Source: a virus
Length of the DNA: 64,000 nucleotides
Direction: 5' to 3' (one strand)
IMG/VR virus record: IMGVR_UViG_3300045988_187870
Below, one piece after another: positions 29,034 to 52,726 of the stretch. Positions within the stretch are counted from its first letter, which is position 1. Each line of letters opens with the position of its first letter. The notes below the pieces were generated by a model. That model was not told the origin of the DNA. It was given only the letters and a program-made list of their open reading frames with translations, and did not search any database. Made by a program: the position numbers and the translations under genes.

Positions 29034-29052
29034 CCGTCCTGTGTTTGTTTAG

Positions 29053-31232: not shown

Positions 31233-31259
31233 TTCATATCAAAATATTTGGAGGAAATT

Positions 31260-35874: not shown

Positions 35875-35883
35875 GGAGATAGT

Positions 35884-36364
35884 AATGATATGTTTTCTTT
35901 GCGGTAAACCTTTAGCAGGCAAACGTACTGCAAAATATTATTTGGCATCAACCATTATACGTAAGTGGACAAATCCTAACAGCATTCAGACAAAGCCAGA
36001 GCTGTCCATAAAGGTTGAGACACATGCTTCATGTGCTGCAAGATATCAGGGCACAATAACACTTCTTGCATCTGAGCGATTTAAAAGTCTTTCAGAAGCA
36101 GATCAGGTGCGCTATAGATCAGCTTATGACAATTCTATTAGTATAGCACGTTATGTTAATACTCTTAGCAAGGTAGTTAGAAGTCAGAATAACAAATGTG
36201 CATATTGTGATACAAAAATTACTATGGAAACAGCAGTTCTTCGACGCAGAGACTGTTCAAAACCTAGAGTATGCTGGAATGCAGATGCTGTTTGCATTGA
36301 CTGCAACCATCTGATGAATAAAATCAATTATCAGCTTGAAAGGAGTCAGTGTGGATCTTCTTGA
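35884..36364 (+). CDS. Zn-finger / HNH-like nuclease-domain protein, translationally coupled to the RT
   Basis: N-terminal CxxC; C-terminal KCAYCD...RRRD...N...CIDCNHL resembles an HNH motif; RBS aaggagatagta; the stop overlaps the RT start. Confidence 0.35.
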
Positions 36365-37568: not shown

Positions 37569-37733
37569 TTAATTATACCGGTGCTAACGGTGCAAGATGC
37601 TTAGCTTGCTATAATTTTGCCATCATAGGAGGTAAACCTCCTTATATGAGAGCTGGGATCATAGATCCCTAATGTCTTAAAGCAATTAGCCAGTGCAAGA
37701 AGAGTATCTAACTAACTATAGTAGGGAGATATT

Positions 37734-38633: not shown

Positions 38634-38648
38634 TAAAGGAATAGTATT

Positions 38649-39167
38649 ATGATTGATGCAGCAACAGTTTATGACTGGATTCTTGAACTACCACAGGACG
38701 CATTGAAATATTTTTGGTGTATCTTAGACGATGAAAAGCTCTTCTTTAGAAGAACTCTCGTGTACGAAAGAGGGAAGTTCATTGCTTCAATTAAGTCTAA
38801 GCTTATAGGTGAGACAAGTGCCAAGGAGCTGAATAGGATTCCACTCATCACTTTAGCAGGTACTGAAAATTGGCAGACTGTTGTTGCATCCCTTTATGAT
38901 AACTATAAAACCTATGTTCCTAGCTATGACAAAAAGTATTTAAACTTTCCCTGTATGAATAAAAACACGTTTGATCCTTTTACCATGCGTCCAGCAGATG
39001 ATTATGATCGTTTAGCGCTTGAACTCTATGTCTTATTTCACAAAGCACAGAATGATTTAACTTGGCCGGATGACGATAGATTCTTTATAAAAGTATCAAA
39101 TGACTGTGCAGTATACAGGAAGTGGATAACTGGCTCACGCAGTCTTGCAAGTAGTTATTTTAAATAA
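38649..39167 (+). CDS. hypothetical protein (172 aa)
   Basis: RBS ataaaggaatagtatt. Confidence 0.55.
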   Translation: MIDAATVYDWILELPQDALKYFWCILDDEKLFFRRTLVYERGKFIASIKSKLIGETSAKELNRIPLITLAGTENWQTVVASLYDNYKTYVPSYDKKYLNFPCMNKNTFDPFTMRPADDYDRLALELYVLFHKAQNDLTWPDDDRFFIKVSNDCAVYRKWITGSRSLASSYFK

Positions 39168-39196
39168 TGGTGCTTTTATCTACTGATAAAACCACA

Positions 39197-39222
39197 CAAC
39201 CAGCCTACCGGCTGGTCAGTTT
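39197..39222 (+). terminator. putative terminator (7-bp stem, loop TACC, T5)
   Basis: aaccagcc tacc ggctggt cag ttttt. Confidence 0.45.
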
Positions 39223-39279
39223 TTGTAGTATCGTGACAGAAGTAAAGGCTTGCAAAATCTTTAGAAGGGACAAAGATAT

Positions 39280-40197
39280 ATGAGTAATGTATTACAGGAA
39301 AATCTACAGAAATATCATGGGAGAATTTCTGTTGCAAAACGTCATGCCCTATACAACAAGGTACTTTCAACCGGAGAACTTTATAACCCACATGTTCACG
39401 CTTCCTTTGCTCCATGGCAGTTTCTTAAAATGTGGAATGGTACGACATCCACGATGAGAACACCTAATCCTGAAAAGGTCATTACAGCAGCACTTAGAAT
39501 GCTGAAGATCTTGAAGGATTACAATACAGATGAGGACTCATATAAAGCAATTGAGAATATTGTATATGAGAATGAGGTAGAGGAATCCTTAAGACGAATC
39601 CTAAGTTTTAGCAGATATTGCCTTGATGAAAACTTTGATAAGGAGTTTGAATGCTATCCATCTGTTGAATCTGTTCTGCGAACCTTTGGCGTCACATTAA
39701 GAACAGTAGAGTGCTTCGGTCCACGTCGAGTAGGTACATTGGCATACTGCTATCTTGTATTTCCATATACATATCGTGCATATATTGCATGTACATCAAG
39801 GGACATGGGTACTATTGATAAGCCATCTAATAGGATTTCAAATTCAATGTCTACATATTTCATTGTGCATCAGGGTTCCGCATATCGCGTTAGACAGAAT
39901 ATAGAGAAGTATGTAGATATTCCTGAGTTTGGAGATATCTATTATGATTTCTTAATGTGCACAGAGCATTTGTGCAGGGCTTATCTAGACTTTGGTAGAT
40001 ACCTTACAATAAAATACTTCTATACGTTCAGAGATAAATATAATATCTCTGATGATTTAGCAGACGAGTTAAAGGAAGCTCTAGATTATGCCAAACAGAC
40101 AGCTTGTGCTTATCATCAAACTGATGATATAATGCTTACTTATTTAAAGGATAGTGTGATGCTATCAGAAACAGCAGAAACTAAATATTTCAGTTGA
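39280..40197 (+). CDS. hypothetical protein (305 aa)
   Basis: RBS agaagggacaaagatat. Confidence 0.55.
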   Translation: MSNVLQENLQKYHGRISVAKRHALYNKVLSTGELYNPHVHASFAPWQFLKMWNGTTSTMRTPNPEKVITAALRMLKILKDYNTDEDSYKAIENIVYENEVEESLRRILSFSRYCLDENFDKEFECYPSVESVLRTFGVTLRTVECFGPRRVGTLAYCYLVFPYTYRAYIACTSRDMGTIDKPSNRISNSMSTYFIVHQGSAYRVRQNIEKYVDIPEFGDIYYDFLMCTEHLCRAYLDFGRYLTIKYFYTFRDKYNISDDLADELKEALDYAKQTACAYHQTDDIMLTYLKDSVMLSETAETKYFS

Positions 40198-40210
40198 AGG
40201 AGGTGATATC

Positions 40211-40429
40211 ATGCAGATAAAGCTAAACAGTATACAGGATGTGAAAGATTTCGTCAATGCAGCCAATAAATCGGCGAAAGAGATTGACGTGAAGAGCGGA
40301 CGTTATAGTGTTGATGCAAAATCATTGCTTGGAATGTTTTCACTTGATCTTTCCTGTCCTGTTGACGTAATTGTTTCTGGAGAACCTGATATGGAATTTA
40401 CAGAGGCAATTCAGAAGTTCTCAATTTAA
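40211..40429 (+). CDS. hypothetical small protein (72 aa)
   Basis: RBS ttgaaggaggtgatatc. Confidence 0.6.
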   Translation: MQIKLNSIQDVKDFVNAANKSAKEIDVKSGRYSVDAKSLLGMFSLDLSCPVDVIVSGEPDMEFTEAIQKFSI

Positions 40430-40492
40430 GATCATACCTGCTTTAGCAGTTATGAAATATACATTATTTTTTTTCAATGGAGGATTATACCA

Positions 40493-40837
40493 ATGAAGAG
40501 ACTTATTACACTAGCAGCAATTGCTGCTACCATCGCAATTACAGCAACTTGCGCATCTGCAGAAACAGTCGAGCCTGAGGTTAATTATGACGACCAGGTA
40601 GTACTCATTTCTGCAACCGAGGAGTCAGTACCTGCTGTAGGTTCTACTGTAGAGGTGACTGACACAGTCACATCCGAAGCCGAGACAGTTGCAACTGCCG
40701 AAGTCAATACAGTGACTCCTGCTACTGTGGAGGCAGATGACAAGGGTTCCCCTGACACCGGCGTTGAGGGCGTAGCTGCTCTTGCAGGTATTGCAGTTCT
40801 TGCAGCGGGTGCAATTATTCTTACTCGCAAGAAGTAA
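40493..40837 (+). CDS. small surface protein with a signal peptide and a C-terminal sortase sorting signal SPDTG + hydrophobic segment + RKK
   Basis: MKRLITLAAIAATIAITATCASA ... KGSPDTGVEGVAALAGIAVLAAGAIILTRKK; matches the (S/P)PxTG motif of Clostridioides-type sortase B. Confidence 0.6.
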   Translation: MKRLITLAAIAATIAITATCASAETVEPEVNYDDQVVLISATEESVPAVGSTVEVTDTVTSEAETVATAEVNTVTPATVEADDKGSPDTGVEGVAALAGIAVLAAGAIILTRKK

Positions 40838-40941
40838 TCTTTAGCAGATATGAGGAGAGTCAGCCACAGGCTCTCCTCTTCATATCAGTACAAAAAGGTA
40901 ACTGTCTTTGAGTGCTGTCCATAACTATCGGAGGTTTATTC

Positions 40942-41334
40942 ATGTATCATATCTCAATTATCAATAGAACTAATGGCCTTAAGAAGACATTTCAGCTTCT
41001 TGAGCCATCAAAGTATTTAACAGATGAAGGTATCACATTTTGTTCAGACAATGCATGGGATGGCATGCTTCACTTTATTCCATGCAGAGGAGTAGACAAG
41101 AATATTAGCATAACTTATAAGGTTCTTGGTAGAGTAGGTGACGCACGTACAATCAATGATGTACTGAAGTCAGCAGGAAGAATTTTTATAGCTGAGCAGG
41201 TTATTATTAAAGATGCACATAATAAAACCTTGTGTAGCTGTTCACCCTGTGAAGTTCCTGATAATTTAAGAAAGCTTAAGTATTCGTCAGTATACAAGAT
41301 TAGTAACAAATATTACTTTAAGGTAGGAGAATAA
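40942..41334 (+). CDS. hypothetical protein
   Basis: RBS atcggaggtttattc. Confidence 0.5.
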   Translation: MYHISIINRTNGLKKTFQLLEPSKYLTDEGITFCSDNAWDGMLHFIPCRGVDKNISITYKVLGRVGDARTINDVLKSAGRIFIAEQVIIKDAHNKTLCSCSPCEVPDNLRKLKYSSVYKISNKYYFKVGE

Positions 41335-41340
41335 AGACTA

Positions 41341-42204
41341 ATGAAAATGCAATCCACAGCCATTGCGCTGTTATGTAGCATTATGGCTGTAACACAGTTA
41401 TCTGGCTGTGAAATGGTGCAAAATGCCTTAGGTTCTAATAAGCAAACAGTCGATTACTCGGAAGTATTAGCAAGGTCTGACTCATTCTTTAGCAGTAAAC
41501 CAAGTGCTATAAATATTGAAGAAATCTCTAATACACTTAGACTTGAGTATGTGTATGGAGATTATTTTTCTGTCACAGAAACTTATAAGTTTGAGAATAA
41601 TGCGGTCCAGACAACCACAATTGTATATCCTGGAGAAATAAGCACAGTGCCAGAGTTCGTTTACTACACAAACAACACATTATCAACAGCAAATCTCCAG
41701 GCAACAATAAGTGGCACATATAAGTGGACAGGAGAACCACTGCTTATTCCAGGAATAGCAAATCTTGATCAGGAACACGCAGTACCTTTAGCAGAACAGC
41801 TGAAGGAGGAAGTAGACAACAACCCGGGCATTCCGCCTGACTTCATTTTGCCGTCAGAAGAGCAAACAGATGCGATCACACAGGAGACAATTGACACTAA
41901 TGAAGATGCTATTACACTACCTGGTTTGACAGATAATGGTTTATCAATTTTGGAATATTCTGATAACACACTTACAATGGATAAGTATGCTATTCACGTT
42001 GGAATAGACAAAGAGCGCCAAATTACAATAGCACAATGCCCTAAAGATTATGTAGATAAGCTTGTGTTCATTTCCGATAATCCTACAATTGCTTCAGTAG
42101 ACTCTAAAGGTATAGTAAGAGGTCATAAAAATGGGTCTGCAACTATAACAGTTACAGTTGATGGCGCTGCAGGATATTCTAGTATTATGGTGTATGTATA
42201 CTGA
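41341..42204 (+). CDS. lipoprotein (lipobox LSGC) with a C-terminal bacterial Ig-like (Big_2) domain
   Basis: MKMQSTAIALLCSIMAVTQLSGC; C-terminal ...ATITVTVDGAAGYSSIMVYVY. Confidence 0.55.
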   Translation: MKMQSTAIALLCSIMAVTQLSGCEMVQNALGSNKQTVDYSEVLARSDSFFSSKPSAINIEEISNTLRLEYVYGDYFSVTETYKFENNAVQTTTIVYPGEISTVPEFVYYTNNTLSTANLQATISGTYKWTGEPLLIPGIANLDQEHAVPLAEQLKEEVDNNPGIPPDFILPSEEQTDAITQETIDTNEDAITLPGLTDNGLSILEYSDNTLTMDKYAIHVGIDKERQITIAQCPKDYVDKLVFISDNPTIASVDSKGIVRGHKNGSATITVTVDGAAGYSSIMVYVY

Positions 42205-42278
42205 GGTGGAAAATGATAAAAGCCAAGGGAGAACTTGGTATGGCAATATTATTTATTGAGATAAGGGGTTAGAATAAC

Positions 42279-42674
42279 TTGCAATGTAAAACTGTCACAT
42301 TTGAATTTCACAATCTAGACGAAGTAACTTTAGCAGCTGGAAAAATGCAGATAACATTATCTGATATTACTTCAAACATTAAAATAGCAAATGCACATGC
42401 TAATTTAAAGAAGAAAGCAAGGAAAGCTGAAATAATTTTCAAGAGAGATTTCTTTGATGGGCGCTTCAGAGAGTCACAAGATTTGGAATGTATAGCTATC
42501 GAAACAAATGCAAAATGCTTCCGAATATATTTTGACAATAAATTTTCAGACAGCATAAACCTCAACGAGCATGTGTGGATGAATGACTTCGATAATATGT
42601 GTATCGCTATAGGGGAATATTCTGAAAACGAACTAAAACAAGTGCATGAGAGATTGAATTATGAATTTAAATGA
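42279..42674 (+). CDS. hypothetical protein (TTG start)
   Basis: ORF. Confidence 0.35.
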   Translation: MQCKTVTFEFHNLDEVTLAAGKMQITLSDITSNIKIANAHANLKKKARKAEIIFKRDFFDGRFRESQDLECIAIETNAKCFRIYFDNKFSDSINLNEHVWMNDFDNMCIAIGEYSENELKQVHERLNYEFK

Positions 42675-43086
42675 TGAAATAACAAGGCGCATGACACTGT
42701 TGGGCATTTCACAAAGCAGAACATTAGCAGTATCTACATATAGAGGAATTGAGTCCCCAAGTAAAGATGTTAGAGATTATGTCACCTACCTAGAAGAAGA
42801 AAATAAATGTACCATTTATCATGTGATAGAAGGTCCAGAACTTCTTTCAAATAGATTCTTTATGCTTGCAATCTCCAATGATTCAAACGCTTGGAACAGT
42901 GAGCTTGTTGCTCTACCTGAGAACAGGTTTAAAGCATATGCCTATTTTGGCTCATATAGACAATATCACTATGAACCAGGATACATAACAATAGAACGAC
43001 ATGGTAATCACTATAGCTACGTAGCTAATCCGAATCTGAGAGAACTCTTTAGCAGTATTCCATGTCCAGGGAAGAAGGTGAACTGA
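42661..43086 (+). CDS. hypothetical protein
   Basis: ORF; overlaps the neighbouring genes. Confidence 0.45.
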   Translation: MNLNDEITRRMTLLGISQSRTLAVSTYRGIESPSKDVRDYVTYLEEENKCTIYHVIEGPELLSNRFFMLAISNDSNAWNSELVALPENRFKAYAYFGSYRQYHYEPGYITIERHGNHYSYVANPNLRELFSSIPCPGKKVN

Positions 43087-43524
43087 GTGACATTAGAAGA
43101 ATTTACAAAGAATTTGTTTGGTGATCAGTTGATTGCCCTATGTAGTACATCAGCAGCGAATGTTTTTTGGCTAGGTACAGCAGCATCAGCAGCAAAGTCT
43201 ATATATGCATACAGTCAGATACTTGCTATTGATTTAGCAGATGCAAAGTTTCAGCCTAAACACCTAACGCGAGCAGACTATTGGAACATAATGTATATTC
43301 AGATGGTTGATAGCACCCTTAACAGCAATGGCTTTAAGCATTTGTGTTACGCAATTTATCTGAACTATTGGGAAGAAATGCATGTGTTTGATTGTGGAAT
43401 GGAGCCAATATGTTATGAAGAGTTCCTTTCAAATGAATATAAAGACAGTGAAGTAATGAAGGAAATTCTTTCACCATCTTTGTTCGAGCAGTATATTAAG
43501 ATGAAGGAGGGTGTAAATTCATGA
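43087..43524 (+). CDS. hypothetical protein (GTG start directly after TGA)
   Basis: RBS gaaggtg 6 nt upstream. Confidence 0.45.
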   Translation: MTLEEFTKNLFGDQLIALCSTSAANVFWLGTAASAAKSIYAYSQILAIDLADAKFQPKHLTRADYWNIMYIQMVDSTLNSNGFKHLCYAIYLNYWEEMHVFDCGMEPICYEEFLSNEYKDSEVMKEILSPSLFEQYIKMKEGVNS

Positions 43525-44090
43525 CATACAGAGAAGTATCTTGCGAAGGAAAAGATCTTAAAGAAGTTGTAGTGTATCTTGTTTCTTTAGCAGCTGAAGG
43601 AGAATTGGTCTGTACAAACTATCAGGGGACAATGCTGTATTCTGATAAAGTTAGCTTAAATAGTGCATTTATGAATATACTGGGCAAATCTTACCAGAGT
43701 TACCTTGAGAAAACGCATAAGCAGTCAGATAGTTCAGCTGATTTGGATGAAACAAGCATTACTCAGACCCTATTAGGTAGAGGTAAGCAGATTATCGATT
43801 CACAGTTTTACTCTACTTGGGAAAAATATGTACTAAAGTATGTTAGTAAACAGGGATTTATCGAAATCTTCAATTATGCTCTGAAGATCCTCGCACTTGT
43901 TAACAAAGGCTGCATGTCAGAGGCTGCAACTACGTACAATTCTTGTCCGCCTGCATATCATAAGAACATTTGTCTCTTAGTGGAAAAGTGTTCAGCCTAT
44001 GGCGAAAACTTTGTAGCTCGCGTTATTAGTGCACAGAATATCTACAATGATACAGGAATCACAGGCAGTACGGAGTACTTTAAAAAGTAG
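43521..44090 (+). CDS. hypothetical protein (189 aa)
   Basis: ATGA overlap; RBS gaaggagggtg. Confidence 0.55.
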   Translation: MTYREVSCEGKDLKEVVVYLVSLAAEGELVCTNYQGTMLYSDKVSLNSAFMNILGKSYQSYLEKTHKQSDSSADLDETSITQTLLGRGKQIIDSQFYSTWEKYVLKYVSKQGFIEIFNYALKILALVNKGCMSEAATTYNSCPPAYHKNICLLVEKCSAYGENFVARVISAQNIYNDTGITGSTEYFKK

Positions 44091-44185
44091 TGTATTACCT
44101 GCAAATACTTTAGTAGTGGTAGTTACAACACTAACATGGTTATAGAGCAGACCTTATTACTCAATTCATGAAGGAGATTGTTATT

Positions 44186-44722
44186 ATGAATAAGCGTATT
44201 ATTACAATGGATGAGGTGGTTGCCAGACCTCAGGATGTGCCTCTTGGAAGAGTGTCATGGAAAGATATGAAAGTTGGCGGTATATATCAGCGTAAAGATG
44301 GAAGATATTACATTTATGCTGGTAGAGCTAATACAACACATACAATCCTCGCATCAAGAACTGACTTTGGTGAGAAGTATTATTACACTTACATCTATCT
44401 AGACTATCCTACTGTTTTTACAGAGGACGTGGATACTAACAAGCTGCGAATCATTGCAAGCTCTGCTAAAATCAGAACATCTGAATATAGAGACATTGCA
44501 GAGGCACAGATTGGTATGCTTCCTGGATTTGTAGAACAGTCTGTATGGGAAGTTGCTGACTTTACAATCTATACTGATCCAAAGCATGTAAGTGGCGGCT
44601 CTAAGAAGGCAAAAGTTAAGTTTAGTGCAGAAGCAGCTGCAACATTTAAGGTTTATGAGAAGAAAGCCGAACTTCAGCAGAAGAAAAAGCGTGCGGGCAG
44701 AAAGGCTAAAACAAAAGTATGA
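44186..44722 (+). CDS. hypothetical protein with a basic C-terminal tail
   Basis: RBS gaaggagattgttatt. Confidence 0.5.
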   Translation: MNKRIITMDEVVARPQDVPLGRVSWKDMKVGGIYQRKDGRYYIYAGRANTTHTILASRTDFGEKYYYTYIYLDYPTVFTEDVDTNKLRIIASSAKIRTSEYRDIAEAQIGMLPGFVEQSVWEVADFTIYTDPKHVSGGSKKAKVKFSAEAAATFKVYEKKAELQQKKKRAGRKAKTKV

Positions 44723-45045
44723 CAGATAAGAAAAAGATATCGAAAATAATCAGCACTATCATATGGGCAGTAGTGTTTTTTGCTGTAGGAGCTTTAGCAG
44801 CAATTATGATAGCCTTGGAAGGAATGAAGGGTGCAGCATCATCAACACCTATTATGTATCTTGCAATGGGTAATACACTTTCAGGCACTGTGCAGGATAA
44901 ATCCTATGATGCTGGAGCTCATATGCTTTCACTGGAGACAAATGAGTTTGGGACAATTACTGTAGATTGTTCTACTGATATGTATAACTCTTGTGACATA
45001 GGCGACACAGTTCATGTCGACTTCGAGCTTTATGCTAACAAATAA
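44719..45045 (+). CDS. small membrane protein
   Basis: ATGA overlap; TM helix. Confidence 0.5.
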   Translation: MTDKKKISKIISTIIWAVVFFAVGALAAIMIALEGMKGAASSTPIMYLAMGNTLSGTVQDKSYDAGAHMLSLETNEFGTITVDCSTDMYNSCDIGDTVHVDFELYANK

Positions 45046-45069
45046 ATCCTTAGTAGGAAGGAGAAGTGT

Positions 45070-45330
45070 ATGGTTAACTATACTCCAAAGTTTAAAGTTG
45101 GAGATGACTGCATTGTTGAGACATTCACCTCTCGAACATCATTGACGCGTACTCTTAATGACAGGGAGTTCGCAAAAGGTAAAATTATTTATGTACACCC
45201 CACACACGGTTGGGCTACTTATAGAGCTTTAGGCTATAACATGTCACTTCCCAATGATCAGATTATGACAGTGACAGAGTATCAGGCAATGATTGCTGGT
45301 AAGTCTAATGTAAAACCACTTCGTGTGTAA
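45070..45330 (+). CDS. hypothetical small protein (86 aa)
   Basis: RBS gtaggaaggagaagtgt. Confidence 0.6.
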   Translation: MVNYTPKFKVGDDCIVETFTSRTSLTRTLNDREFAKGKIIYVHPTHGWATYRALGYNMSLPNDQIMTVTEYQAMIAGKSNVKPLRV

Positions 45331-45337
45331 AATTAAT

Positions 45338-45451
45338 GGCTGTAGGATTATCCTACAGCCATTTTCCGTTAAAGAGGCTGCAGGATTATCCTGCAGCCAT
45401 TTTCAATTAAAGAGGCTGCAGGGTACCCTGCAGCCATTTTCAATTATACAG
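45338..45451 (+). repeat. three tandem 38-bp units, each a 10-bp-stem palindrome (GGCTGCAGGa tta tCCTGCAGCC) followed by ATTTTCAATTAAAGA
   Basis: period exactly 38 bp; unit 1 carries compensatory changes (tgtagga/tcctaca) that preserve the palindrome. Confidence 0.8.
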
Positions 45452-45465
45452 AAAGGATTCACAAC

Positions 45466-46509
45466 ATGGCAAAAGCAGTGAAGATGCAGACATCCTCTGC
45501 ACCTAAAGTTGGAGGCGGAACAGGTAAGCGTATCATAGCGCTTGTACTTATGGCATCAATGATTGTAGGCTTATTATTCCTGGCATCAATGATTATGAAT
45601 CAGCGTGAAGAGTTAGTATCTGTAATGCGCCTTAAGAAATCAATTACATCTGGCACAGCAATTACGGATAGTATCTTAGAAGAATATCAGATGCCTAAGA
45701 GCACTTATGAAACTCTTGGTTCTATTACAATGTATGACGCAAACAATAATCCATATCAGCAGCAGACTTATTTGCTTTGGCAGCAGAAGGAGCAGGTGCT
45801 TGGGATGTTTGCATCTAATTATATTGCTCAGGGTGATGTGCTCACATCAATGGACCTCACACGAACTTTAACAGTACGAAATCCATGGGTTACTGCAATG
45901 AAGGAAGACGAAGAGATATTCACAATGTCTTTTGATGCAGGTACTATTAACACGCGAATGATTTACCCTGGAACTCGTCTAAGAGCTAGATTTGTATCTG
46001 AAGTACCTGTAGACAAGCTTAGTGAAGTAAAAACACAGATTGAGCATGCAGAAAATATTGGCGATGAAACTGATGATATTGTTCATGATGCAGTAACCAC
46101 TCTTCATGGCGATATCTTAGAAGACTCTGAAGCTAAGAATAGTGTACAGGTTGCTGAAGTTATTATCGATGAGATTATTATCACGGACATGACTAATAGC
46201 TCCGGTGAGAGTATTTATGATCTCTATATGAGTCTTCTCAAGCTCCCAATCAATGAACGTATCAACTATTTGAAAACAGGTATTGGTTCAAATGATATTT
46301 CTAATAACTGGGCAGCAAGAGTTACACCTTCTACAATCACATTCATCCTCGATAAAAAATCAGCATCTCGTTTAGCAGAATTTGAACAGACAGGTGGTAC
46401 AATTAAGTACACAATTCTTCCAGATAAGGCAGATTCTGAAGATCAGGCGAATCTGATGTCTCAGTTTGTTGAACTTAGCAACCAGATAAACACTGTTACG
46501 GAGGATTAA
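45466..46509 (+). CDS. CpaB/RcpC-like Flp pilus assembly protein (N-terminal TM)
   Basis: position at the head of the Tad-like operon; TM helix + periplasmic domain; RBS cagaaaggattcacaac. Confidence 0.4.
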   Translation: MAKAVKMQTSSAPKVGGGTGKRIIALVLMASMIVGLLFLASMIMNQREELVSVMRLKKSITSGTAITDSILEEYQMPKSTYETLGSITMYDANNNPYQQQTYLLWQQKEQVLGMFASNYIAQGDVLTSMDLTRTLTVRNPWVTAMKEDEEIFTMSFDAGTINTRMIYPGTRLRARFVSEVPVDKLSEVKTQIEHAENIGDETDDIVHDAVTTLHGDILEDSEAKNSVQVAEVIIDEIIITDMTNSSGESIYDLYMSLLKLPINERINYLKTGIGSNDISNNWAARVTPSTITFILDKKSASRLAEFEQTGGTIKYTILPDKADSEDQANLMSQFVELSNQINTVTED

Positions 46510-46511
46510 GC

Positions 46512-47387
46512 ATGAATATCAAACAGCAGCTTATAACTCCACTTGTGACATTGCTTAAGACATTTTCTGGCACCGAAGAAATTCAGGTAAATGTCCCAGA
46601 TTACAGTAACGTCTTTGGGTTTTACTCACCAACAGGTGGTACAGGTGTAACTACATTCGTAGCAAACCTGGGGTATGTCCTTGCATCTCAACTTAAGGTT
46701 GCTATTGTTGATTTTGACTTATATCATCCAGCACTATTTAGATTCTTACTTGATGATAGTGATGATAAAACAGGATTGCATCCAGAAGCTGATTTAGTGG
46801 ATAAACTTATCACGTCAGGAGCTAATATTACTTCTTTTGGGCATACATCAAAGTATAACAATATAACATTGTTCACCGGTATGCCACAGGATGACATCAT
46901 TAAGTTCTGTGAGCTGGATTATAGTAATATTGTGCAATGTATTAAGGAACTCTCACGCCTCTACGATATTGTTTTAGTAGACTTTAAGGGCAATCTTGCA
47001 CAAGAAACCGTAATGGCTTCGATTGATGCTTGTACGCGAGTGTTCACATTTATCAGGCCATTGTTTAGTGATGTTGATAGCGTGCACAAGGATAATGATC
47101 TGTTGATTCGTTATGGTTATGGAAAGAAACTTACGGCAATCGTGCAGGCTAATATTCAAAAGCGATATCTGCCTGATAGCGCTTTTGATGATGATGACAT
47201 TGTAACTGTAATGCGTCTACCATATGTAAAATCAGTCGAAGATACTGGTGAGAGCTTTGATATTTTCTATGCGACCAATGCAGGCTCATCAAAAGCTGGT
47301 GCAGCTTATGCAGAGTGTTGCAAGTTTATGGCAGAGTATTTATGCAACTATGAAAGAATGATTTTTGAGAAGGGAGATGAGAAGTAA
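46512..47387 (+). CDS. ParA/MinD-like ATPase (TadZ/CpaE-like; deviant Walker A PTGGTGVTT)
   Basis: FYSPTGGTGVTTFVANLG; operon context. Confidence 0.45.
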   Translation: MNIKQQLITPLVTLLKTFSGTEEIQVNVPDYSNVFGFYSPTGGTGVTTFVANLGYVLASQLKVAIVDFDLYHPALFRFLLDDSDDKTGLHPEADLVDKLITSGANITSFGHTSKYNNITLFTGMPQDDIIKFCELDYSNIVQCIKELSRLYDIVLVDFKGNLAQETVMASIDACTRVFTFIRPLFSDVDSVHKDNDLLIRYGYGKKLTAIVQANIQKRYLPDSAFDDDDIVTVMRLPYVKSVEDTGESFDIFYATNAGSSKAGAAYAECCKFMAEYLCNYERMIFEKGDEK

Positions 47388-48919
47388 TGGCGCTTACAAA
47401 GGGATTTTTCACAGCACGACGTTCAGAAAGCGCAGGTAGTGATCTTGCTTCTTGTATTTCCTTTGAGCAGTGCGTAGATATTCTATATTCTTATATTAAT
47501 CAATGTACTCTTGAGCAGGAGAGTACCGTCGAGAATATGAATTATGCACAGGTCCGCAAGTTTACTGCAGACTGTATTGTAAACTATGTAAGTTCAAAGC
47601 ATCCTTTGGTGACTGGGTTTGTTGACGAAACAGGAAAAGCCGAATATGGTCGACTTACTAAAGCTTTAACAGATGAAGTGCTTGATTGGGGTGTCTTAAC
47701 AGATGCAATGCAAGACCCTAATGTGTCAGAAATTCAAGGTAATGATTATAAGAGTATCTATGTGGAGAAGAGTGGTAAAACAGATCTTCTTCGCTCGGAT
47801 ATTACTGATAAGATCATAACTTTTGAGTCAGCCGATGACATGCTCAAGATAGCAAATAAGCTATTACGTTTTTCTGAAGTATCACTTAGTAGGAATGGAG
47901 CATTGCAGGGCGGTATGACACGTGAGGGCTTCCGTGTTGCAGTCTGCGACCCATCTGTAGCAGCGCCTGATAAGGGAGAAAATCAATTAAAAGATAAATC
48001 TCCTATGTTTGTTATACGTAAGTATGGCTCAACACCACCTAGCCTTGAAAAGTTGATTGGATGGCACTCAGTTACTATACAACAGGCAAATTTTATGAAG
48101 ATCCTAGCAAAGACTGGTTTACCGATTGTAATTTGCGGAGCAACTGGTTCTGGTAAAACAGTACTACTTCAGTCTATTTTAAATAATCGTGTACCCACTA
48201 GACGTTTAGCAGTTGTTGAGGATCAGTCAGAGTTAAACGCACGCATGCGTGATGAAAACGGTATAGATAAGTCAAACACAATACAGTTTGAGGCAAGACC
48301 AACACCACCTAGCGGCACGGCACCTCTTACTTTTCCAACATTCAGTAATGTTACGATGCAGCTACTTCGTATGACACCTAGACTTATTGTATTAGGTGAG
48401 ATGAGAACGGATGAAATTGTATCACAGGCAATAACAGCAGCTTACACCGGCCATGGTTTGTATTCTACTATTCATGCCGAGAATGTTGAAGACTGCGTAA
48501 CACGTATGACAAAGTGTGTACAGGCAACATCTAATGGTACTCCATGGGACGTAAACATGCAAACAGTATGTGCTGCTATTCCATTCATTATCTCTCAGCA
48601 GAGGCTTGATGATGGATCTCGTAAGATGCTTGAATTCTCTGAAATTGAAGGTACTATCATGAAAGATGGAAAGCTAATGCCTAAGGTGAACACATTATTC
48701 AAGTTCATTTCTGACGGACAAGGTATTCATCCTGAGGATGGTAAGCTTCATGGTGAGTTCTATCAGATTAATAAGCTTTCATCTAAAATGATGGAACGCT
48801 TGAAGCTCAAGGCACTTACAAAAGACGAACTGAATATATTACTCTCTGGTCCCGAGCCAGGAACTATGCTTTCATGCACATTTGATGATACAACAGAGCA
48901 GCAGGTAGTAAGGGGGTGA
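47387..48919 (+). CDS. TadA/CpaF/VirB11-family secretion ATPase
   Basis: Walker A VICGATGSGKTVLLQS, Walker B/Asp box RLAVVEDQSEL, His-box-like IVLGEMRTDE. Confidence 0.75.
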   Translation: MALTKGFFTARRSESAGSDLASCISFEQCVDILYSYINQCTLEQESTVENMNYAQVRKFTADCIVNYVSSKHPLVTGFVDETGKAEYGRLTKALTDEVLDWGVLTDAMQDPNVSEIQGNDYKSIYVEKSGKTDLLRSDITDKIITFESADDMLKIANKLLRFSEVSLSRNGALQGGMTREGFRVAVCDPSVAAPDKGENQLKDKSPMFVIRKYGSTPPSLEKLIGWHSVTIQQANFMKILAKTGLPIVICGATGSGKTVLLQSILNNRVPTRRLAVVEDQSELNARMRDENGIDKSNTIQFEARPTPPSGTAPLTFPTFSNVTMQLLRMTPRLIVLGEMRTDEIVSQAITAAYTGHGLYSTIHAENVEDCVTRMTKCVQATSNGTPWDVNMQTVCAAIPFIISQQRLDDGSRKMLEFSEIEGTIMKDGKLMPKVNTLFKFISDGQGIHPEDGKLHGEFYQINKLSSKMMERLKLKALTKDELNILLSGPEPGTMLSCTFDDTTEQQVVRG

Positions 48920-48927
48920 GTTGATAG

Positions 48928-49905
48928 ATGGAAAACATCGTTTTAGCAGGTATTGGAATACTTGCCTACTTCTTTATGCGCACTTTAACGGGGCTAAAGA
49001 TCTTCCCGTTACTTCATGAGATACTCACTGCTTTAACAGGCTCTGCAGTTAAGTCTACAACTCAATTTCGAGAACAGACTGCAGTGACATTTAGAAGAAT
49101 GTCACTTGATGAAAAGCGTAAGAGCGTGAAATATCGCTACTACTGTTTCATCAATGAGGTTTTAGCAGCATTCGGCTTAAAACAGCGTGGAATCAATGTT
49201 GAGGGCTTTACAATGTCTCTTATTGCAGTTGTGATTGCAATAAGCATTGTTATTGCACTAGTAACTTCATCAGTGGCTTATGCTTTGCTATTACCAATTA
49301 TCTTACTGCCAACTTTTATTGCATTGATATTTTTAGGATCACGTATGAGGGTACGCAAACGCAAAATTGAACTTTTGGATGCCATGGATATCTTATGTGC
49401 AGTTATGACAGATGGAATACTGAAAGCTGTTAAAGAGAACTATGCACAATTCCCTACAGATATCCAGGATTACTTTAAGAAATTTGTAAATAACGTGGAA
49501 CTTCTCAATATGTCAGTACCACAGGCAGTACAGGAGTTGAACGAGGATATTGGTAGTCTGTATGATGAATTTTGTGATAGTGTCATCACATACGAGGCAA
49601 ATAGAGCTAGAGGTATGGAAACACTGTTTAACTTCTATATTTCAGAAAATGGTAAAACACAAGCTCGTGATAGACAGATAAAGCGATTAAGCGATTCAGC
49701 TAATATGGACTATTTTGCTTCACTGCTAGTTATTGTGCTATTTGGTGTCTTCTCATCAGTGTTTCTTGGGGGCGGTTCAAGCTTGTGGGCAACACCATTA
49801 GGCAAAGTTGTAATAGTACTACTGATCTTGGGAGCAGTAGGTGTATTCATATACATTCAGTACTTGCTTTCGAAGCCATTCATTTATACGGAGAAAGATA
49901 ATTAA
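48928..49905 (+). CDS. TadB-like polytopic membrane protein (GspF fold)
   Basis: multiple TM helices; follows the ATPase. Confidence 0.45.
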   Translation: MENIVLAGIGILAYFFMRTLTGLKIFPLLHEILTALTGSAVKSTTQFREQTAVTFRRMSLDEKRKSVKYRYYCFINEVLAAFGLKQRGINVEGFTMSLIAVVIAISIVIALVTSSVAYALLLPIILLPTFIALIFLGSRMRVRKRKIELLDAMDILCAVMTDGILKAVKENYAQFPTDIQDYFKKFVNNVELLNMSVPQAVQELNEDIGSLYDEFCDSVITYEANRARGMETLFNFYISENGKTQARDRQIKRLSDSANMDYFASLLVIVLFGVFSSVFLGGGSSLWATPLGKVVIVLLILGAVGVFIYIQYLLSKPFIYTEKDN

Positions 49906-50849
49906 TGACACAGATTGCCAACAACATAGTCAAGTTCTTCTCAGAGAAATGGCCTATACTGGCAATTGCAGTTGTTGCCATAATATTCTGTTTTCTGCTT
50001 TACAAATGGTTGTTTACGCCAAGAAAAAGCACAGTACAGAGTAATTCAGAGAAGAATCGTAAACGGATTGATAAAGGCATTTCTTATAAAGAAAACCAAA
50101 AAGCATTACAAGCTAAAATCGACATTGCAAAGTTCTGGGGAAAGTTACCACTAGTTTCTTTCACAGAAGAGGACAAAGAAGAGCTTCAAAAACTCATTTT
50201 AGCAGTAGACAAACGAACGCCATCTGGACGTTTGATGCTACCTGAAGAGATTTATTGCCAGCAGCTATTTATAGCTCTGGCAATAATTTTTGTATGTGTA
50301 ATCTTGATGTTTCTTACACCTTTTACAATCTTGGGTGTACTTATAGTTCCAATCATTATGCGTACACCAGTTAAAACGTTAGAAGGAGAACGGAAGGATT
50401 TTGCTGTTGCTTTAGCAGATGAATTTCTCTCTTTTTATAAACTGTATTTTGTCCAGTTTATTCAACCGGATAATACAACTACTCTCTCAGCAGTAATTAA
50501 TGACTATTTACAAAATGCATCGTTGTCAGTAAAGAAAATACTGAAAGTAGTAGATAGTGATTTGGCTAAGGGGGAAGAATTTGCACTGAAGCGTTTTGAT
50601 GCACGCTTCCCAGATAGCCCAAAAGTACATAAGTTTTGTTCTGTCGCACGAGCTAGGACAAAGGGTGATGAAACAAGCTATGAAACAATGAAAAGCTTTC
50701 TGGATCTTTTACAGGAAGAGCACGATGTGTATTTTGACACAGAGTGCAAGAAACGCGAAAAGCGAATTGAATCAGTTATAGGCATATTCTTAGCAATAAG
50801 TTTATGTATTGTTGCATTCATGGCTTTCGCGATGATGTTTATGGTCTAA
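49905..50849 (+). CDS. TadC-like polytopic membrane protein
   Basis: TM topology; ATGA overlap with the upstream gene. Confidence 0.45.
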   Translation: MTQIANNIVKFFSEKWPILAIAVVAIIFCFLLYKWLFTPRKSTVQSNSEKNRKRIDKGISYKENQKALQAKIDIAKFWGKLPLVSFTEEDKEELQKLILAVDKRTPSGRLMLPEEIYCQQLFIALAIIFVCVILMFLTPFTILGVLIVPIIMRTPVKTLEGERKDFAVALADEFLSFYKLYFVQFIQPDNTTTLSAVINDYLQNASLSVKKILKVVDSDLAKGEEFALKRFDARFPDSPKVHKFCSVARARTKGDETSYETMKSFLDLLQEEHDVYFDTECKKREKRIESVIGIFLAISLCIVAFMAFAMMFMV

Positions 50850-50862
50850 GGAGGACACATAT

Positions 50863-51084
50863 ATGAATCTTAAGAAGATAGGGCCAGTTGTAGCAATTTT
50901 GGCCGTAGTACTCGTAATCGCAATTGTAGTTATCGCAAACTGGACTAAATGGGCTACTGCTTTAGGCGACTATGCTGGTCAGCAGGTAGGCCTTGATGGG
51001 CTTGGTACTGCTGTTATTGGTGATGCAACAGGTAGAGATGGCGCGCAGGGTAATGGTAATGGCGGAGGCGCACAGGTTCCGTAA
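50863..51084 (+). CDS. small pilin-like protein (73 aa; N-terminal hydrophobic helix, Gly-rich C-terminus)
   Basis: MNLKKIGPVVAILAVVLVIAIVVIANW; RBS taaggaggacacatat; no canonical Flp G/xxxxEY motif. Confidence 0.35.
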   Translation: MNLKKIGPVVAILAVVLVIAIVVIANWTKWATALGDYAGQQVGLDGLGTAVIGDATGRDGAQGNGNGGGAQVP

Positions 51085-51157
51085 TTACTAAATTGACGCT
51101 TATATAGGGGGAGTCCTAGCTCCCTCTAACTTTTGATTAAAGATAAAGGAGAAAAAT

Positions 51158-51793
51158 ATGCATAGATTCACATGGGTGGCCAAGGGGCTCTTAGGGTTCA
51201 TTTTAGCAGTTATTGCATTTGATATAATTATGCTCTGCTATTCATTTAGCGTTGTATCAAGCGCAATGGATGATACTTTGGACACAATAGCTGCAATGGT
51301 TGCAGAGGAGAATTGTCTTGACAAGGGTTTGGATAGCGGAAAAGCAATTAAAACTACTATTGACCCAAAAGTCACAATATCTAAAGACTCTAAGATATAC
51401 TCAGCGCTCTCTGTTATGGTTGAAAATGCACCAATCTGGCTAACATACAATCAAAATGGCATGTCCGAGCTTAAAGATGGTAGCAATTGGATTCCTAAGA
51501 ACCCAACTAATACACAAATAACAGTACTTCGGGGTAAACCTGATGATGCAATTAAGAATATCGATGTTAGTTGCTTAACACTAAATGGAACATCTATCAA
51601 CAGTGATATTACATATTTCAGTTATGAGAATTGTCCACAAAGAGGTACCCCTATAACAGTTGAGCTAACTGGATACTGGACGATACAGGTGCTTCCTCAT
51701 TTCGGGAATGGCGCACCTTGGGATGGTTCTGTAAATTTTCAGATTAAGCGTTCTGTTACTGTAGTCGGTACAAAATTTTATAAAGGTAAGTGA
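51158..51793 (+). CDS. TadE-like pseudopilin / membrane-anchored protein
   Basis: N-terminal TM helix GLLGFILAVIAFDIIMLCYSF; RBS aaggagaaaaat. Confidence 0.35.
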   Translation: MHRFTWVAKGLLGFILAVIAFDIIMLCYSFSVVSSAMDDTLDTIAAMVAEENCLDKGLDSGKAIKTTIDPKVTISKDSKIYSALSVMVENAPIWLTYNQNGMSELKDGSNWIPKNPTNTQITVLRGKPDDAIKNIDVSCLTLNGTSINSDITYFSYENCPQRGTPITVELTGYWTIQVLPHFGNGAPWDGSVNFQIKRSVTVVGTKFYKGK

Positions 51794-51797
51794 TAGT

Positions 51798-52709: not shown

Positions 52710-52726
52710 TTCATGAGGTTTAGCAG

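What the first reader, a model, noticed from the sequence alone, without database searches (positions are those of the whole stretch)
45338..45451. Three tandem 38-bp palindromic units with compensatory substitutions upstream of the Tad-like operon
The three units have an exact 38-bp period. Each contains a 10-bp perfect inverted repeat (GGCTGCAGGA / TCCTGCAGCC) with a 3-nt loop, followed by ATTTTC(A/C)... and AAAGAG. In unit 1 both arms carry the matching change (TGTAGGA / TCCTACA), and in unit 3 the loop differs, so the palindrome is maintained by covariation.

The units could be iterons or operator sites for a dimeric regulator of the secretion operon. They could equally be stacked intrinsic terminators, or the processing sites of a small structured RNA array.
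Basis: seen in the sequence. Interest (0 to 1): 0.58.

Follow-up and report, generated by a model that had tools for sequence, protein, structure and literature searches.

The report
Tandem terminator hairpins before phage Tad operon
Three near-identical hairpin-plus-T-run units sit between a small gene and a Tad-pilus-like operon of a very large phage; they are most likely stacked transcription terminators that throttle read-through into the operon, an ordinary kind of element whose multi-copy form recurs at this one site in related phages.

Summary
Window 45338-45451 holds three hairpin units starting exactly 38 nt apart, each followed by ATTTTC. They begin 8 nt after the stop codon of an 86-aa gene and end 30 nt before the ATG of the next gene.

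The window comes from a huge phage: it has a major head protein and a sigma factor, and a 99%-identical relative lies on a 382-kb contig. The downstream genes are Tad-like (RcpC/CpaB-like by fold, ParA/MinD-like ATPase, TadA/CpaF-type ATPase).

Relatives carry one to three hairpin-plus-T-run units at the same site, with different stem sequences and periods (38, 58, 47, 33, about 84 nt). Imperfect stems use only G·U pairs on the coding strand, so the structure is selected in sense RNA. No further copies occur in the 64-kb window, in the relatives' flanks or as a dispersed family in species genomes. No sigma-70-like promoter lies between the hairpins and the ATG.

Best reading (about 0.6): stacked, individually leaky intrinsic terminators that attenuate read-through into the Tad-like operon. 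Operators or iterons, REP elements and CRISPR-like arrays are not supported. A regulated antitermination gate or a role in RNA stability and processing remains possible. This is a new member of a known kind, of modest interest.

The parts
45070..45330 (+). Upstream 86-aa ORF, the last gene before the array. Its stop codon TAA (45328-45330) lies 8 nt before hairpin 1. A small ORF of 78-116 aa lies directly upstream of the RcpC-like gene in every relative examined; orthology is seen directly for L003 and L007 and inferred from position for the others.
   Evidence: ORF list and sequence. No Pfam, PHROG, NCBIfam or PDB match. A similar small ORF occupies the same position in L001-3, L012-16, L018-23 and L036.
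45338..45375 (+). Unit 1: hairpin GGCTGTAGGA-TTA-TCCTACAGCC (45338-45360; the stem can extend to 45335-45363) plus tail ATTTTCCGTTAAAGA.
   Evidence: Hairpin free energy -16.3 kcal/mol.
45376..45413 (+). Unit 2: hairpin GGCTGCAGGA-TTA-TCCTGCAGCC (45376-45398) plus tail ATTTTCAATTAAAGA.
   Evidence: Listed first among 31 terminator-like sites in the 19-kb scan. Free energy -18.3 kcal/mol.
45414..45451 (+). Unit 3: hairpin GGCTGCAGG-GTAC-CCTGCAGCC (45414-45435) plus tail ATTTTCAATTATACAG.
   Evidence: Listed as terminator-like on the + strand, and also on the - strand. Free energy -17.7 kcal/mol.
45452..45457 (+). Shine-Dalgarno-like AAAGGA, 8 nt before the ATG at 45466. Only 30 nt separate hairpin 3 from the ATG.
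   Evidence: Sequence. The SD region (GAAAGGA) is conserved in relatives. No sigma-70-like + strand promoter match lies between the hairpins and the ATG in any of the 15 lineages scanned.
45466..46509 (+). First gene of the Tad-like operon: RcpC/CpaB-like protein (347 aa, N-terminal transmembrane helix).
   Evidence: AlphaFold2 model with mean pLDDT 72. Foldseek top hits are RcpC, the Tad pilus alignment complex protein (9gzr, E = 4e-8), followed by SAF-domain proteins. 25 homologues found.
46512..47387 (+). ParA/MinD-type ATPase (CpaE-like).
   Evidence: Pfam CbiA and AAA_31 matches below cut-off, and PHROG ParA-like.
47387..48919 (+). TadA/CpaF-type secretion ATPase.
   Evidence: Pfam T2SSE, E = 6e-26, 91 bits. 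Best NCBIfam hit is the TadA family, E = 2e-27, below the curated cut-off.
48928..50849 (+). Two membrane proteins (325 and 314 aa) in the position of TadB and TadC. Their identity is not verified.
   Evidence: Only weak DUF2207_C matches. Gene order is conserved in all relatives.
51105..51128 (+). Next single terminator-like hairpin downstream (TAGGGGGAGTCCTAGCTCCCTCTA + ACTTTTG), after a 73-aa pilin-like ORF (50863-51084). It is a likely 3' boundary of this transcription unit.

Best explanation
The three units are stacked intrinsic (factor-independent) transcription terminators acting in the sense (+) RNA.

Each unit is a 9-13-bp GC-rich hairpin followed by a short U-run (AUUUUC). Such a unit should release only a fraction of RNA polymerases by itself. 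Three in series multiply the effect.

The hairpins start 8 nt after the stop codon of the 86-aa gene and end 30 nt before the next ATG, and no promoter-like site lies in between. The RcpC/CpaE/CpaF Tad-like operon is therefore most likely transcribed by polymerases that read through the array. On this reading the array works as an attenuator: it sets a low, fixed ratio of Tad-like operon mRNA to upstream mRNA, and it gives the upstream mRNA a protective 3' hairpin.

**Shown:**
- the anatomy of the units
- site-specific conservation of hairpin plus T-run in relatives
- sense-strand-only wobble pairs
- no additional copies found in the 64-kb window or in the relatives' flanks
- a sigma-factor gene in the phage, which implies use of a bacterial-type core RNA polymerase

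**Inferred:**
- that termination actually occurs
- that it is partial
- that copy number compensates for weak U-runs
For: **1. Anatomy.** The stems have 9-10 pairs, 6-7 of them G-C, with loops of 3-4 nt and free energies of -16 to -18 kcal/mol, followed by ATTTTC. Units 2 and 3 head the 31 terminator-like sites listed for window 36000-55000, against 10.2 +/- 3.7 expected.

**2. Position and orientation.** The array lies directly after a stop codon and is co-oriented with all genes.

**3. Same site in relatives.** Hairpin plus T-run is kept while the stem sequence changes:
- L001-3: 1 copy, followed by TTTTTT
- L009/10: 1 copy, followed by TTTTT
- L021-23: 1 copy, followed by TTTTTT
- L005: 3 x 58 nt
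- L036: 3 x 47 nt
- L018-20: 2 x 33 nt
- L004: 2 x about 84 nt
- L011: at least 2 copies

**4. Strand test.** There are 14 G·U pairs in 9 hairpins on the + strand. No hairpin is appreciably more stable on the - strand (at most 1.5 kcal/mol). The + strand fold is more stable by 2.5-6.7 kcal/mol.

**5. Covariation.** It supports the helix: 6 of 11 pairs have changes on both sides, 18 cells in all, reached by 0 of 500 shuffles, and the slid-partner controls collapse.

**6. T-runs are directional.** There are 4-6 T in the 8 nt after the stem in 20 of the 22 hairpins tabulated at this site, and fewer A before it in the relatives.

**7. Not a dispersed repeat.** The covariance model finds no other copy in the window; the next best hit scores 15.6 bits at E = 0.17 and is a different terminator hairpin. 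It finds none in 159 kb of the relatives' flanks outside this site. Species genomes gave only 12 isolated single hits.

**8. Similar single sites elsewhere.** Other single hairpin-plus-T-run sites of the same build lie just upstream of other genes, at 3091, 17390, 32778, 39199 and 51105.

**9. Polymerase.** The phage encodes a sigma-70-family factor at 17437-18231, so a bacterial-type RNA polymerase, the enzyme on which such terminators act, transcribes at least part of it.

**10. Co-transcription.** In relatives without hairpins (L017, L037) the RcpC-like gene abuts or overlaps the upstream gene, which fits co-transcription from upstream.

**11. Site-specific arrays.** Among the window and all related loci, the only tandem repeats of period 20 or more that TRF finds outside ORFs are at this site.
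Against: - The U-run is short: four U, preceded by A and followed by C. Unit 1's extended stem consumes part of it, and the scan did not list unit 1.
- In the window's own lineage the palindromes are perfect, so they say nothing about strand. An A-rich stretch (AAAGA) precedes units 2 and 3, and unit 3 also scores as a minus-strand terminator.
- No RNA data are available. Termination, its efficiency and read-through are all inferred.
- Stem sequence is conserved (GGYTGYR...) among relatives down to about 63% protein identity. This is more than a pure structure-only constraint needs.
- A hairpin that only stabilises or marks processing of RNA would look nearly the same.
- The link between copy number and U-run strength rests on about 10 lineages only.
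Confidence: 0.6

Rival explanations
1. The hairpins act in sense RNA but not mainly as terminators. They are intercistronic stabiliser or processing elements. Either they block 3'-to-5' exonucleases so that the upstream mRNA segment outlives the downstream one, or they are cut by an endoribonuclease that separates the two segments. REP hairpins in malE-malF and the RNase III sites between T7 genes work this way (own knowledge).
For: The evidence for an RNA-level, sense-strand structure is the same as for the best explanation. The weak U-runs are compatible with little termination. The array lies between two co-directional genes with no promoter in between.
Against: A T-run follows nearly every hairpin at this site in every lineage. 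Termination needs a T-run, but exonuclease blocking and RNase cleavage do not. The stems are perfect and lack the internal loops typical of RNase III sites. No nuclease gene is linked to the site.
Confidence: 0.14
2. A single terminator is functional, and the extra copies are neutral by-products of slippage or unequal recombination at a palindrome-rich site. They are kept alike by gene conversion. The multiplicity itself has no function.
For: Units within an array resemble each other more than they resemble units of other lineages. Periods differ between lineages (33-84 nt), which implies separate duplication events. Between 99%-identical strains unit 2 switches between TGTAGG/CCTACA and TGCAGG/CCTGCAG. 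That looks like conversion from a neighbouring unit or palindrome-templated repair.
Against: Arrays recur at this one site in at least five lineages. None of the other terminator-like hairpins in the 64-kb window or the relatives' flanks is duplicated. Copy number is stable among near-identical contigs, with no polymorphism within the groups window/L006/L008, L001-3, L012-16, L018-20 and L021-23. Single-copy lineages have the longest uninterrupted T-runs.
Confidence: 0.1
3. The palindromes are DNA sites, either operators for a dimeric regulator of the Tad-like operon or iterons of an origin or packaging site.
For: The window holds perfect 22-29-bp palindromes, repeated three times at a fixed 38-bp spacing directly upstream of an operon. 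An XRE-type HTH gene and a sigma factor exist in the window.
Against: In the relatives the symmetry is broken only by G·T, and only on the + strand. A duplex-binding dimer would see these positions as mismatched half-sites. Stem sequences differ completely in more distant relatives that keep the operon. No sigma-70-like promoter overlaps the units on the + strand. There is no GC-skew change and no replication gene nearby. Contiguous 10-bp arms with a 1-3-bp centre are atypical for HTH operators (own knowledge).
Confidence: 0.05
4. The array is transcribed from the minus strand, or is processed, into small hairpin RNAs that act in trans. They might be a decoy for a hairpin-binding host protein, in the manner of repeat-mimicking anti-CRISPR RNAs (own knowledge).
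For: The best promoter-like match in the 19-kb scan is on the minus strand: TTGCCA-18-TATAAT at 45472..45443, matching 11 of 12 positions. It would start transcription at the edge of hairpin 3. A similar match is present in L006, L008 and L036. The window's perfect palindromes fold equally well on either strand.
Against: Promoter-like matches occur at chance frequency overall: 68 found against 63.9 expected. The minus-strand match is absent in L003, L005, L009, L012, L018 and L021 under the same rule, and it is largely a by-product of the conserved ATGGCAA start and the SD region. Minus-strand folding is weakened in the relatives. The 15-nt 'spacers' are near-identical, so this is not a CRISPR-like array. 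No Rfam family reaches threshold.
Confidence: 0.03

Closest known systems
Tandem intrinsic terminators (for example E. coli rrnB T1-T2) and phage late-operon terminators such as lambda tR' and T7 T-phi (own knowledge)
   Same: GC-rich hairpin plus U-run after a stop codon, co-oriented with transcription. Several sit in series so that read-through is multiplied down. They act on bacterial-type RNA polymerase.
   Different: Here the copies are near-identical tandem duplicates with an exact 38-nt period, not unrelated neighbouring terminators. They lie inside a co-directional gene string with no room for a downstream promoter. The multi-copy state recurs at the orthologous site of divergent huge phages, with different periods.
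Weak, NusA/NusG-stimulated intrinsic terminators of Bacillus subtilis (Mandell et al., eLife 2021, PMC8060035, listed; details from own knowledge)
   Same: Hairpins with short or interrupted U-tracts that terminate only partially by themselves. SD-rich, low-GC context that suggests a Firmicutes-type host.
   Different: Factor dependence is untested here. The host is unknown. The hairpins here are strong and perfect; only the U-run is weak.
REP/BIME extragenic palindromes of enterobacteria (own knowledge)
   Same: Palindromes of 20-40 nt in intergenic regions, sometimes clustered, that can stabilise upstream mRNA and cause partial termination.
   Different: REP elements are dispersed in hundreds of copies, and clusters alternate in orientation. 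This unit was found only at one site in 64 kb, not in the relatives' flanks, and not as a family in 185,579 species genomes.
PeSL (promoter-early stem-loop) cassettes of T4-type phages (own knowledge)
   Same: Repeated intergenic stem-loop modules in large phage genomes, placed between co-directional genes.
   Different: PeSLs pair a stem-loop with an early promoter and are scattered across the genome. No promoter-like sequence accompanies these units, and they are confined to one site.

Membership tests
Intrinsic (Rho-independent) terminator | GC-rich stem-loop (stem about 5-14 bp, loop 3-8 nt) | tested here: met
   Stems of 9-13 bp with 6-7 G-C pairs, loops of 3-4 nt, free energy -16.3 to -18.3 kcal/mol.
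Intrinsic (Rho-independent) terminator | U/T-rich tract immediately 3' of the stem | tested here: inconclusive
   The tail is ATTTTC: four T after one A, and 4-5 T in the first 8 nt. Units 2 and 3 pass the scan's rule, but unit 1 is not listed. Relatives have T3 to T6.
Intrinsic (Rho-independent) terminator | Lies downstream of a stop codon, in the orientation of transcription; the structure forms in the transcript | tested here: met
   The array starts 8 nt after TAA. All genes are on the + strand. Wobble pairs in the relatives occur on the + strand only, and covariation supports the helix.
Intrinsic (Rho-independent) terminator | RNA 3' ends or polymerase release at the U-tract | not testable with these tools
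   No transcript data are available. This needs Term-seq or in vitro transcription.
REP/BIME-like dispersed extragenic palindrome | Many dispersed copies across the genome | tested here: not met
   Pattern search gives 3 hits, all here. The covariance model R1 finds no other copy in 64 kb or in 159 kb of related loci outside the orthologous site. Species genomes gave only 12 isolated single hits. Caveat: the other roughly 320 kb of the 382-kb relative contig was not seen.
CRISPR array or mini-array | Repeats separated by unique spacers of comparable length | tested here: not met
   The 15-nt intervals are near-identical (ATTTTCCGTTAAAGA and ATTTTCAATTAAAGA) and shorter than any spacer.
Iterons or operator array | Sequence-specific duplex symmetry conserved with the cognate binding protein; association with a promoter or origin | tested here: not met
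   Symmetry in the relatives is broken by G·T on one strand only. Stems are unrelated in distant relatives that keep the operon. No + strand promoter-like site. No skew change. Protein binding itself is not testable here.
Any curated RNA family (Rfam 15) | Match at or above the family's gathering score | tested here: not met
   Nothing at the site in gathering mode. Permissive mode gave only sub-threshold hairpin or terminator-like hits; the best was 33.1 bits against a gathering score of 55.
Terminator cluster under processive antitermination (lambda N/Q, LoaP or put-type) | An antiterminator gene or RNA, and a recruitment site upstream of the terminators | not tested
   No such gene was recognised among the window ORFs scanned, but most of them have no annotation. 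Recruitment sites cannot be recognised without a model.

The most novel reading that the evidence does not exclude
The array is not a passive stop but a regulated gate. A phage-encoded processive antiterminator or hairpin-binding factor would let RNA polymerase cross three otherwise efficient terminators only at a defined stage of infection. That would time expression of a phage-encoded Tad-like (RcpC/CpaE/CpaF) machine. Selection for a tight gate would explain why the multi-copy state has arisen repeatedly, with different periods, at this one site in a family of huge phages.
Probability: 0.15. Interest if true: 0.5.

Novelty: new member of a known kind. Interest (0 to 1): 0.3.

Why it matters
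Taken alone, this is a routine regulatory element. It marks a transcription boundary, or throttle, in front of a Tad-pilus-like operon carried by an uncultivated huge phage.

It has some value in three ways. It helps define the operon structure of these phages. It gives a clean natural example of terminator copy number evolving at a fixed site: one to three copies and five different periods across relatives. It also points to a concrete experiment (0, 1, 2 or 3 units in a reporter) on how stacked weak terminators set expression ratios.

The more unusual biology lies around it: the phage-borne Tad-like system itself, and a strand-polar octamer that is about 80-fold over-represented.

Tried and rejected
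- **Dispersed REP-like repeat.** Rejected. Pattern search and a covariance model found no further copies in the window or in the relatives' flanks. A scan of 185,579 species genomes gave 12 isolated, unrelated single hairpins; the one in a Lachnospiraceae MAG (L027) is an ordinary single terminator in unrelated, higher-GC DNA. IMG/VR has no match.
- **Known RNA family.** None found.
- **Replication origin.** There is no GC-skew inflection.
- **Promoter inside or after the array.** No sigma-70-like + strand match in 15 lineages. By eye I also considered ECF-type and SPO1-late-type readings of the recurring 'CGTTA' tail. I dropped them because the spacings do not fit and the start site would fall after the SD sequence.
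- **Antisense promoter.** A good match exists in the window lineage but is not conserved. Kept only as a minor rival.
- **CRISPR-like or anti-CRISPR RNA mimic.** The spacers are identical and only 15 nt long, and the strand evidence argues against a minus-strand reading. The idea could not be tested against repeat databases.
- **Relatives in public collections.** INPHARED phages, IMG/VR and GTDB genomes gave nothing. Relatives came only from Logan, ENA and NCBI metagenome contigs and one JGI-collection scan.
- **Whole-window inverted-repeat listing**. It was uninformative, so I replaced it with my own perfect-hairpin scan.
- **Literature.** Searches for phage-borne Tad systems and for the octamer found nothing relevant.

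Full report
**1. The observation**

Three hairpins start at 45338, 45376 and 45414, exactly 38 nt apart.

- Unit 1: GGCTGTAGGA-TTA-TCCTACAGCC, followed by ATTTTCCGTTAAAGA.
- Unit 2: GGCTGCAGGA-TTA-TCCTGCAGCC, followed by ATTTTCAATTAAAGA.
- Unit 3: GGCTGCAGGGTACCCTGCAGCC (22 nt), followed by ATTTTCAATTATACAG.

Several measures show this is more than chance.

- TRF gives period 38, 2.9 copies and score 169.
- The degenerate palindrome pattern occurs three times in the window, all here, against none in 100 shuffles.
- The region folds 34 kcal/mol better than shuffles, z = -9.7, and equally well on either strand in this lineage.
- A scan for perfect hairpins with stems of at least 9 bp finds 12 distinct sites in 64 kb, three of them in this array. 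That scan returned 21 nested entries, against a mean of 2.4 in shuffles.

Two other assemblies of the same phage (L006, L008) also have three units.

**2. Context**

All sizeable ORFs lie on the + strand.

The window is phage DNA. It has a major head protein at 5908-7104 (phrog_422, E = 4e-63). Most ORFs have no family match. A sigma-70-family factor lies at 17437-18231. A 99%-identical relative of the downstream gene lies on a 382-kb contig (L006), and other relatives lie on contigs of 120-205 kb.

The array lies between an 86-aa ORF (stop codon at 45328-45330) and the ATG at 45466, with an SD-like AAAGGA at 45452-45457.

The downstream genes are Tad-like.

- The first protein models at pLDDT 72. 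Its best structural match is RcpC, the Tad pilus alignment complex protein (9gzr, E = 4e-8), followed by SAF-domain proteins.
- Next come a ParA/MinD-type ATPase and a T2SSE/TadA-type ATPase.
- Then two membrane proteins, a 73-aa ORF with an N-terminal hydrophobic helix, and two ORFs with N-terminal transmembrane segments.

**3. Comparative evidence**

Homologues of the RcpC-like protein (25 proteins at 39-99% identity) were traced to contigs, and I read the orthologous upstream region in each.

| Lineage | Protein identity to window | What lies upstream of the RcpC-like gene |
|---|---|---|
| window, L006, L008 | 99-100% | 3 units, period 38 |
| L001-3 | 75% | 1 hairpin, AGGCTGTGAGGT-TA-ACCTCACAGCCT + TTTTTTCG |
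| L009/10 | 68% | 1 hairpin, GGGGTTGTGGC...GCCACAACCCC + TTTTTCG |
| L004 | 65% | 2 composite units of about 84 nt |
| L005 | 64% | 3 units, period 58 |
| L011 | 63% | at least 2 units (contig end) |
| L012-16 | 55% | 2 unlike hairpins |
| L018-20 | 48% | 2 units, period 33 |
| L021-23 | 47% | 1 strong hairpin + TTTTTT, plus a weak second |
| L036 | 46% | 3 units, period 47 (GGGAGTAGC...GCTGCTCCC + ATTTTTGG) |
| L007, L017, L037 | 39-53% | none; in L017 and L037 the gene abuts or overlaps its upstream neighbour |

TRF over the window and all related loci finds tandem repeats of period 20 or more outside ORFs only at this site. Copy number does not vary among near-identical contigs.

So a hairpin plus T-run is an orthologous, site-specific feature. 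Its stem sequence drifts, and it has been multiplied, apparently independently given the different unit boundaries, in at least five lineages.

**4. RNA or DNA, and which strand**

The window's own palindromes are perfect and therefore say nothing about strand. In the relatives, every imperfection is a G·U (G·T) pair on the + strand: 14 such pairs in 9 hairpins. No hairpin is appreciably more stable on the - strand (at most 1.5 kcal/mol). The + strand fold is 2.5-6.7 kcal/mol more stable than the - strand fold.

On an alignment of 15 GGYTG-type units, 6 of the 11 stem pairs show changes on both sides (18 cells). That is reached by 0 of 500 shuffles, and the signal collapses when partners are slid.

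T-runs follow the stems: 4-6 T in 8 nt in 20 of the 22 hairpins tabulated at this site. In the relatives the upstream side is not correspondingly A-rich.

This indicates a structure selected in the sense transcript and followed by a U-run, which is the signature of an intrinsic terminator.

One caveat concerns close strains. Between them, unit 2 switches between TGTAGG/CCTACA and TGCAGG/CCTGCAG. Conversion from a neighbouring unit or palindrome-templated repair explains that more simply than two independent compensatory mutations. The 'covariation' visible inside the window is therefore weaker evidence than the wobble pairs in the relatives.

**5. Not a dispersed repeat, a known RNA or an origin**

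- Covariance model R1 finds only the three units in the window. The next hit scores 15.6 bits at E = 0.17 and is a different terminator-type hairpin at 32782. In the related loci it finds only the orthologous units.
- A scan of one genome per bacterial and archaeal species found 12 isolated single hits in unrelated organisms. IMG/VR gave none.
- Rfam has nothing above threshold at the site.
- GC skew is uniformly positive with no inflection.

**6. Mechanism**

Only 30 nt, including the SD sequence, separate hairpin 3 from the ATG. No sigma-70-like + strand match lies between the hairpins and the ATG in any of the 15 lineages. Relatives that lack the hairpins have the gene fused to its upstream neighbour.

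The operon is therefore most likely transcribed from upstream, through the array. Each unit has a strong hairpin but a short U-run (AUUUUC) and should terminate only partially. Three in series would pass roughly the cube of the single-unit read-through. They would also leave the upstream mRNA with a protective 3' hairpin.

Single-copy lineages have the longest uninterrupted T-runs (T5-T6), while arrays mostly have T3-T5, often offset by one base. This suggests copy number compensates for U-run weakness, but the sample is small.

Other single hairpin-plus-T-run sites sit just upstream of other genes, at 3091, 17390 (before the sigma-factor gene), 32778, 39199 and 51105. So this phage appears to use such elements generally, and only this site is multi-copy.

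Termination, its partial nature and read-through are inferred. No transcript data could be consulted.

**7. Rivals**

- RNA stabiliser or processing hairpins: same structure, but this does not explain the conserved U-runs. Confidence about 0.14.
- Neutral duplication of a single functional terminator: site-specific recurrence and stable copy number argue against it. About 0.10.
- DNA operators or iterons: strand-specific wobble, divergent stems, no promoter and no origin argue against it. About 0.05.
- Antisense or processed small RNAs: there is a good minus-strand promoter-like match, TTGCCA-18-TATAAT at 45472..45443, but it is not conserved. About 0.03.
- A regulated antitermination gate is a variant of the main explanation. 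It is given as the novel case, at about 0.15.

**8. Comparison with known elements, and novelty**

The element works like tandem intrinsic terminators or attenuators. It meets the structural and positional criteria. The U-tract criterion is only partly met, and activity is untested. It fails the defining tests for REP/BIME, CRISPR arrays and iterons or operators.

It is a new member of a known kind. The one feature I have not seen described is the recurrent, site-specific tandem multiplication of the terminator in front of a phage-borne Tad-like operon.

Two jumbo-phage overviews contain no mention of phage-encoded Tad or type IV pilus assembly genes. Targeted literature searches found none.

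**9. Verdict**

Interest is modest (0.3).

The more striking things in this window were seen in passing. Chief among them is the octamer TTTAGCAG, with 81 copies on the + strand against 2 on the - strand, which codon usage does not explain and which the relatives share. The phage-borne Tad-like system itself is the other.

Noticed in passing
whole window, e.g. 1451, 8626, 19783, 32977, 44792, 62020; also L001-3, L005, L006, L012-16, L018-23: The octamer TTTAGCAG (usually CTTTAGCAG) occurs 81 times on the + strand and twice on the - strand, where about 1 per strand is expected, with a mean spacing of 777 nt. 60 of the 81 copies sit in the frame nnT-TTA-GCA-Gnn (Leu-Ala). Codon usage does not explain this: 72 of 151 Leu-Ala pairs use TTA-GCA (17% expected), and 52 of those 72 have T before and G after (12% expected). 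The same polar enrichment is seen in related phages and not in unrelated loci. It looks like a Chi-, KOPS- or uptake-signal-like polar DNA or RNA motif. No literature match was found.
   Followed up: partly
window 45466-52709 (and the same gene order in L001-L023, L036, L037): A huge phage carries a Tad-like gene set: an RcpC/CpaB-like protein (by fold), a ParA/MinD-like ATPase, a TadA/CpaF-type ATPase, two polytopic membrane proteins, a 73-aa pilin-like ORF (50863-51084) followed by a terminator-like hairpin, and two ORFs with N-terminal transmembrane segments. Two jumbo-phage reviews searched do not mention phage-encoded Tad or type IV pilus assembly genes.
   Followed up: partly
window 19759-20007, 21286-21573, 22777-22940, 24214-24737: Four neighbouring ORFs (starting at 20008, 21574, 22941 and 24738) are each preceded by an ATG plus a signal-peptide-like stretch and then a run of 8-11 C (interrupted at 19759-20007 and 24214-24737). 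The run puts the ORF out of frame with its start. These are either phase-variable homopolymer tracts or homopolymer assembly errors.
   Followed up: no
window 14002-14380 (+): A full-length tmRNA gene scores 123.7 bits in Rfam RF00023 (E = 7e-48). ARAGORN did not report it, and no tRNA genes were found in the window. A perfect 10-bp hairpin at 13972-13994 lies just upstream.
   Followed up: no
window 34978-37568: A reverse transcriptase (RVT_1, E = 6e-32) at 36336-37568 follows a GNAT acetyltransferase at 34978-35874. The RT is also present next to the Tad-like operon in L012-16. This may be a diversity-generating retroelement; template and variable repeats were not looked for.
   Followed up: no
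window 17390-17415 and 17437-18231: A sigma-70-family factor (Sigma70_r2, E = 1.6e-8) is preceded, 22 nt upstream of its start, by a strong 11-bp hairpin (AGCCAGGTCGC-AAAT-GCGACCTGGCT) with tail TATTTCGTTA. This is the same hairpin-then-SD layout as the finding, but in single copy.
   Followed up: partly
window 45361-45371, 17416-17425; L003 4022-4033, L009, L018, L007, L012: After the T-run, the motif (C/G)GTTA recurs: ATTTTCCGTTA, TATTTCGTTA, TTTTTTCGTTA, TTTTAACGTTA, TTTTGACGTTA, TTTTTTCCGTTA, TTTATGCGTTA. It may simply be inherited sequence, or it may be part of the terminator or pause signal. No promoter reading fitted.
   Followed up: partly
window 45443-45472 (- strand): This is the best sigma-70-like match in the 19-kb scan (TTGCCA-18-TATAAT, 11 of 12 positions). 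It points leftwards into the hairpin array and overlaps the ATG and SD region of the RcpC-like gene. It is present in L006, L008 and, more weakly, L036, but not in other relatives.
   Followed up: partly
window 3599-4059: A 237-nt tandem repeat of 1.9 copies at 78% identity lies inside the ORF at 3339-4073. It is presumably a duplicated protein domain.
   Followed up: no
window 12378-13166, 29030-30130, 31248-32771: Accessory genes typical of large phages: a microbial-type PARG domain protein, a DHH/DHHA1 phosphoesterase, and a Band-7/flotillin-like protein of 507 aa.
   Followed up: no
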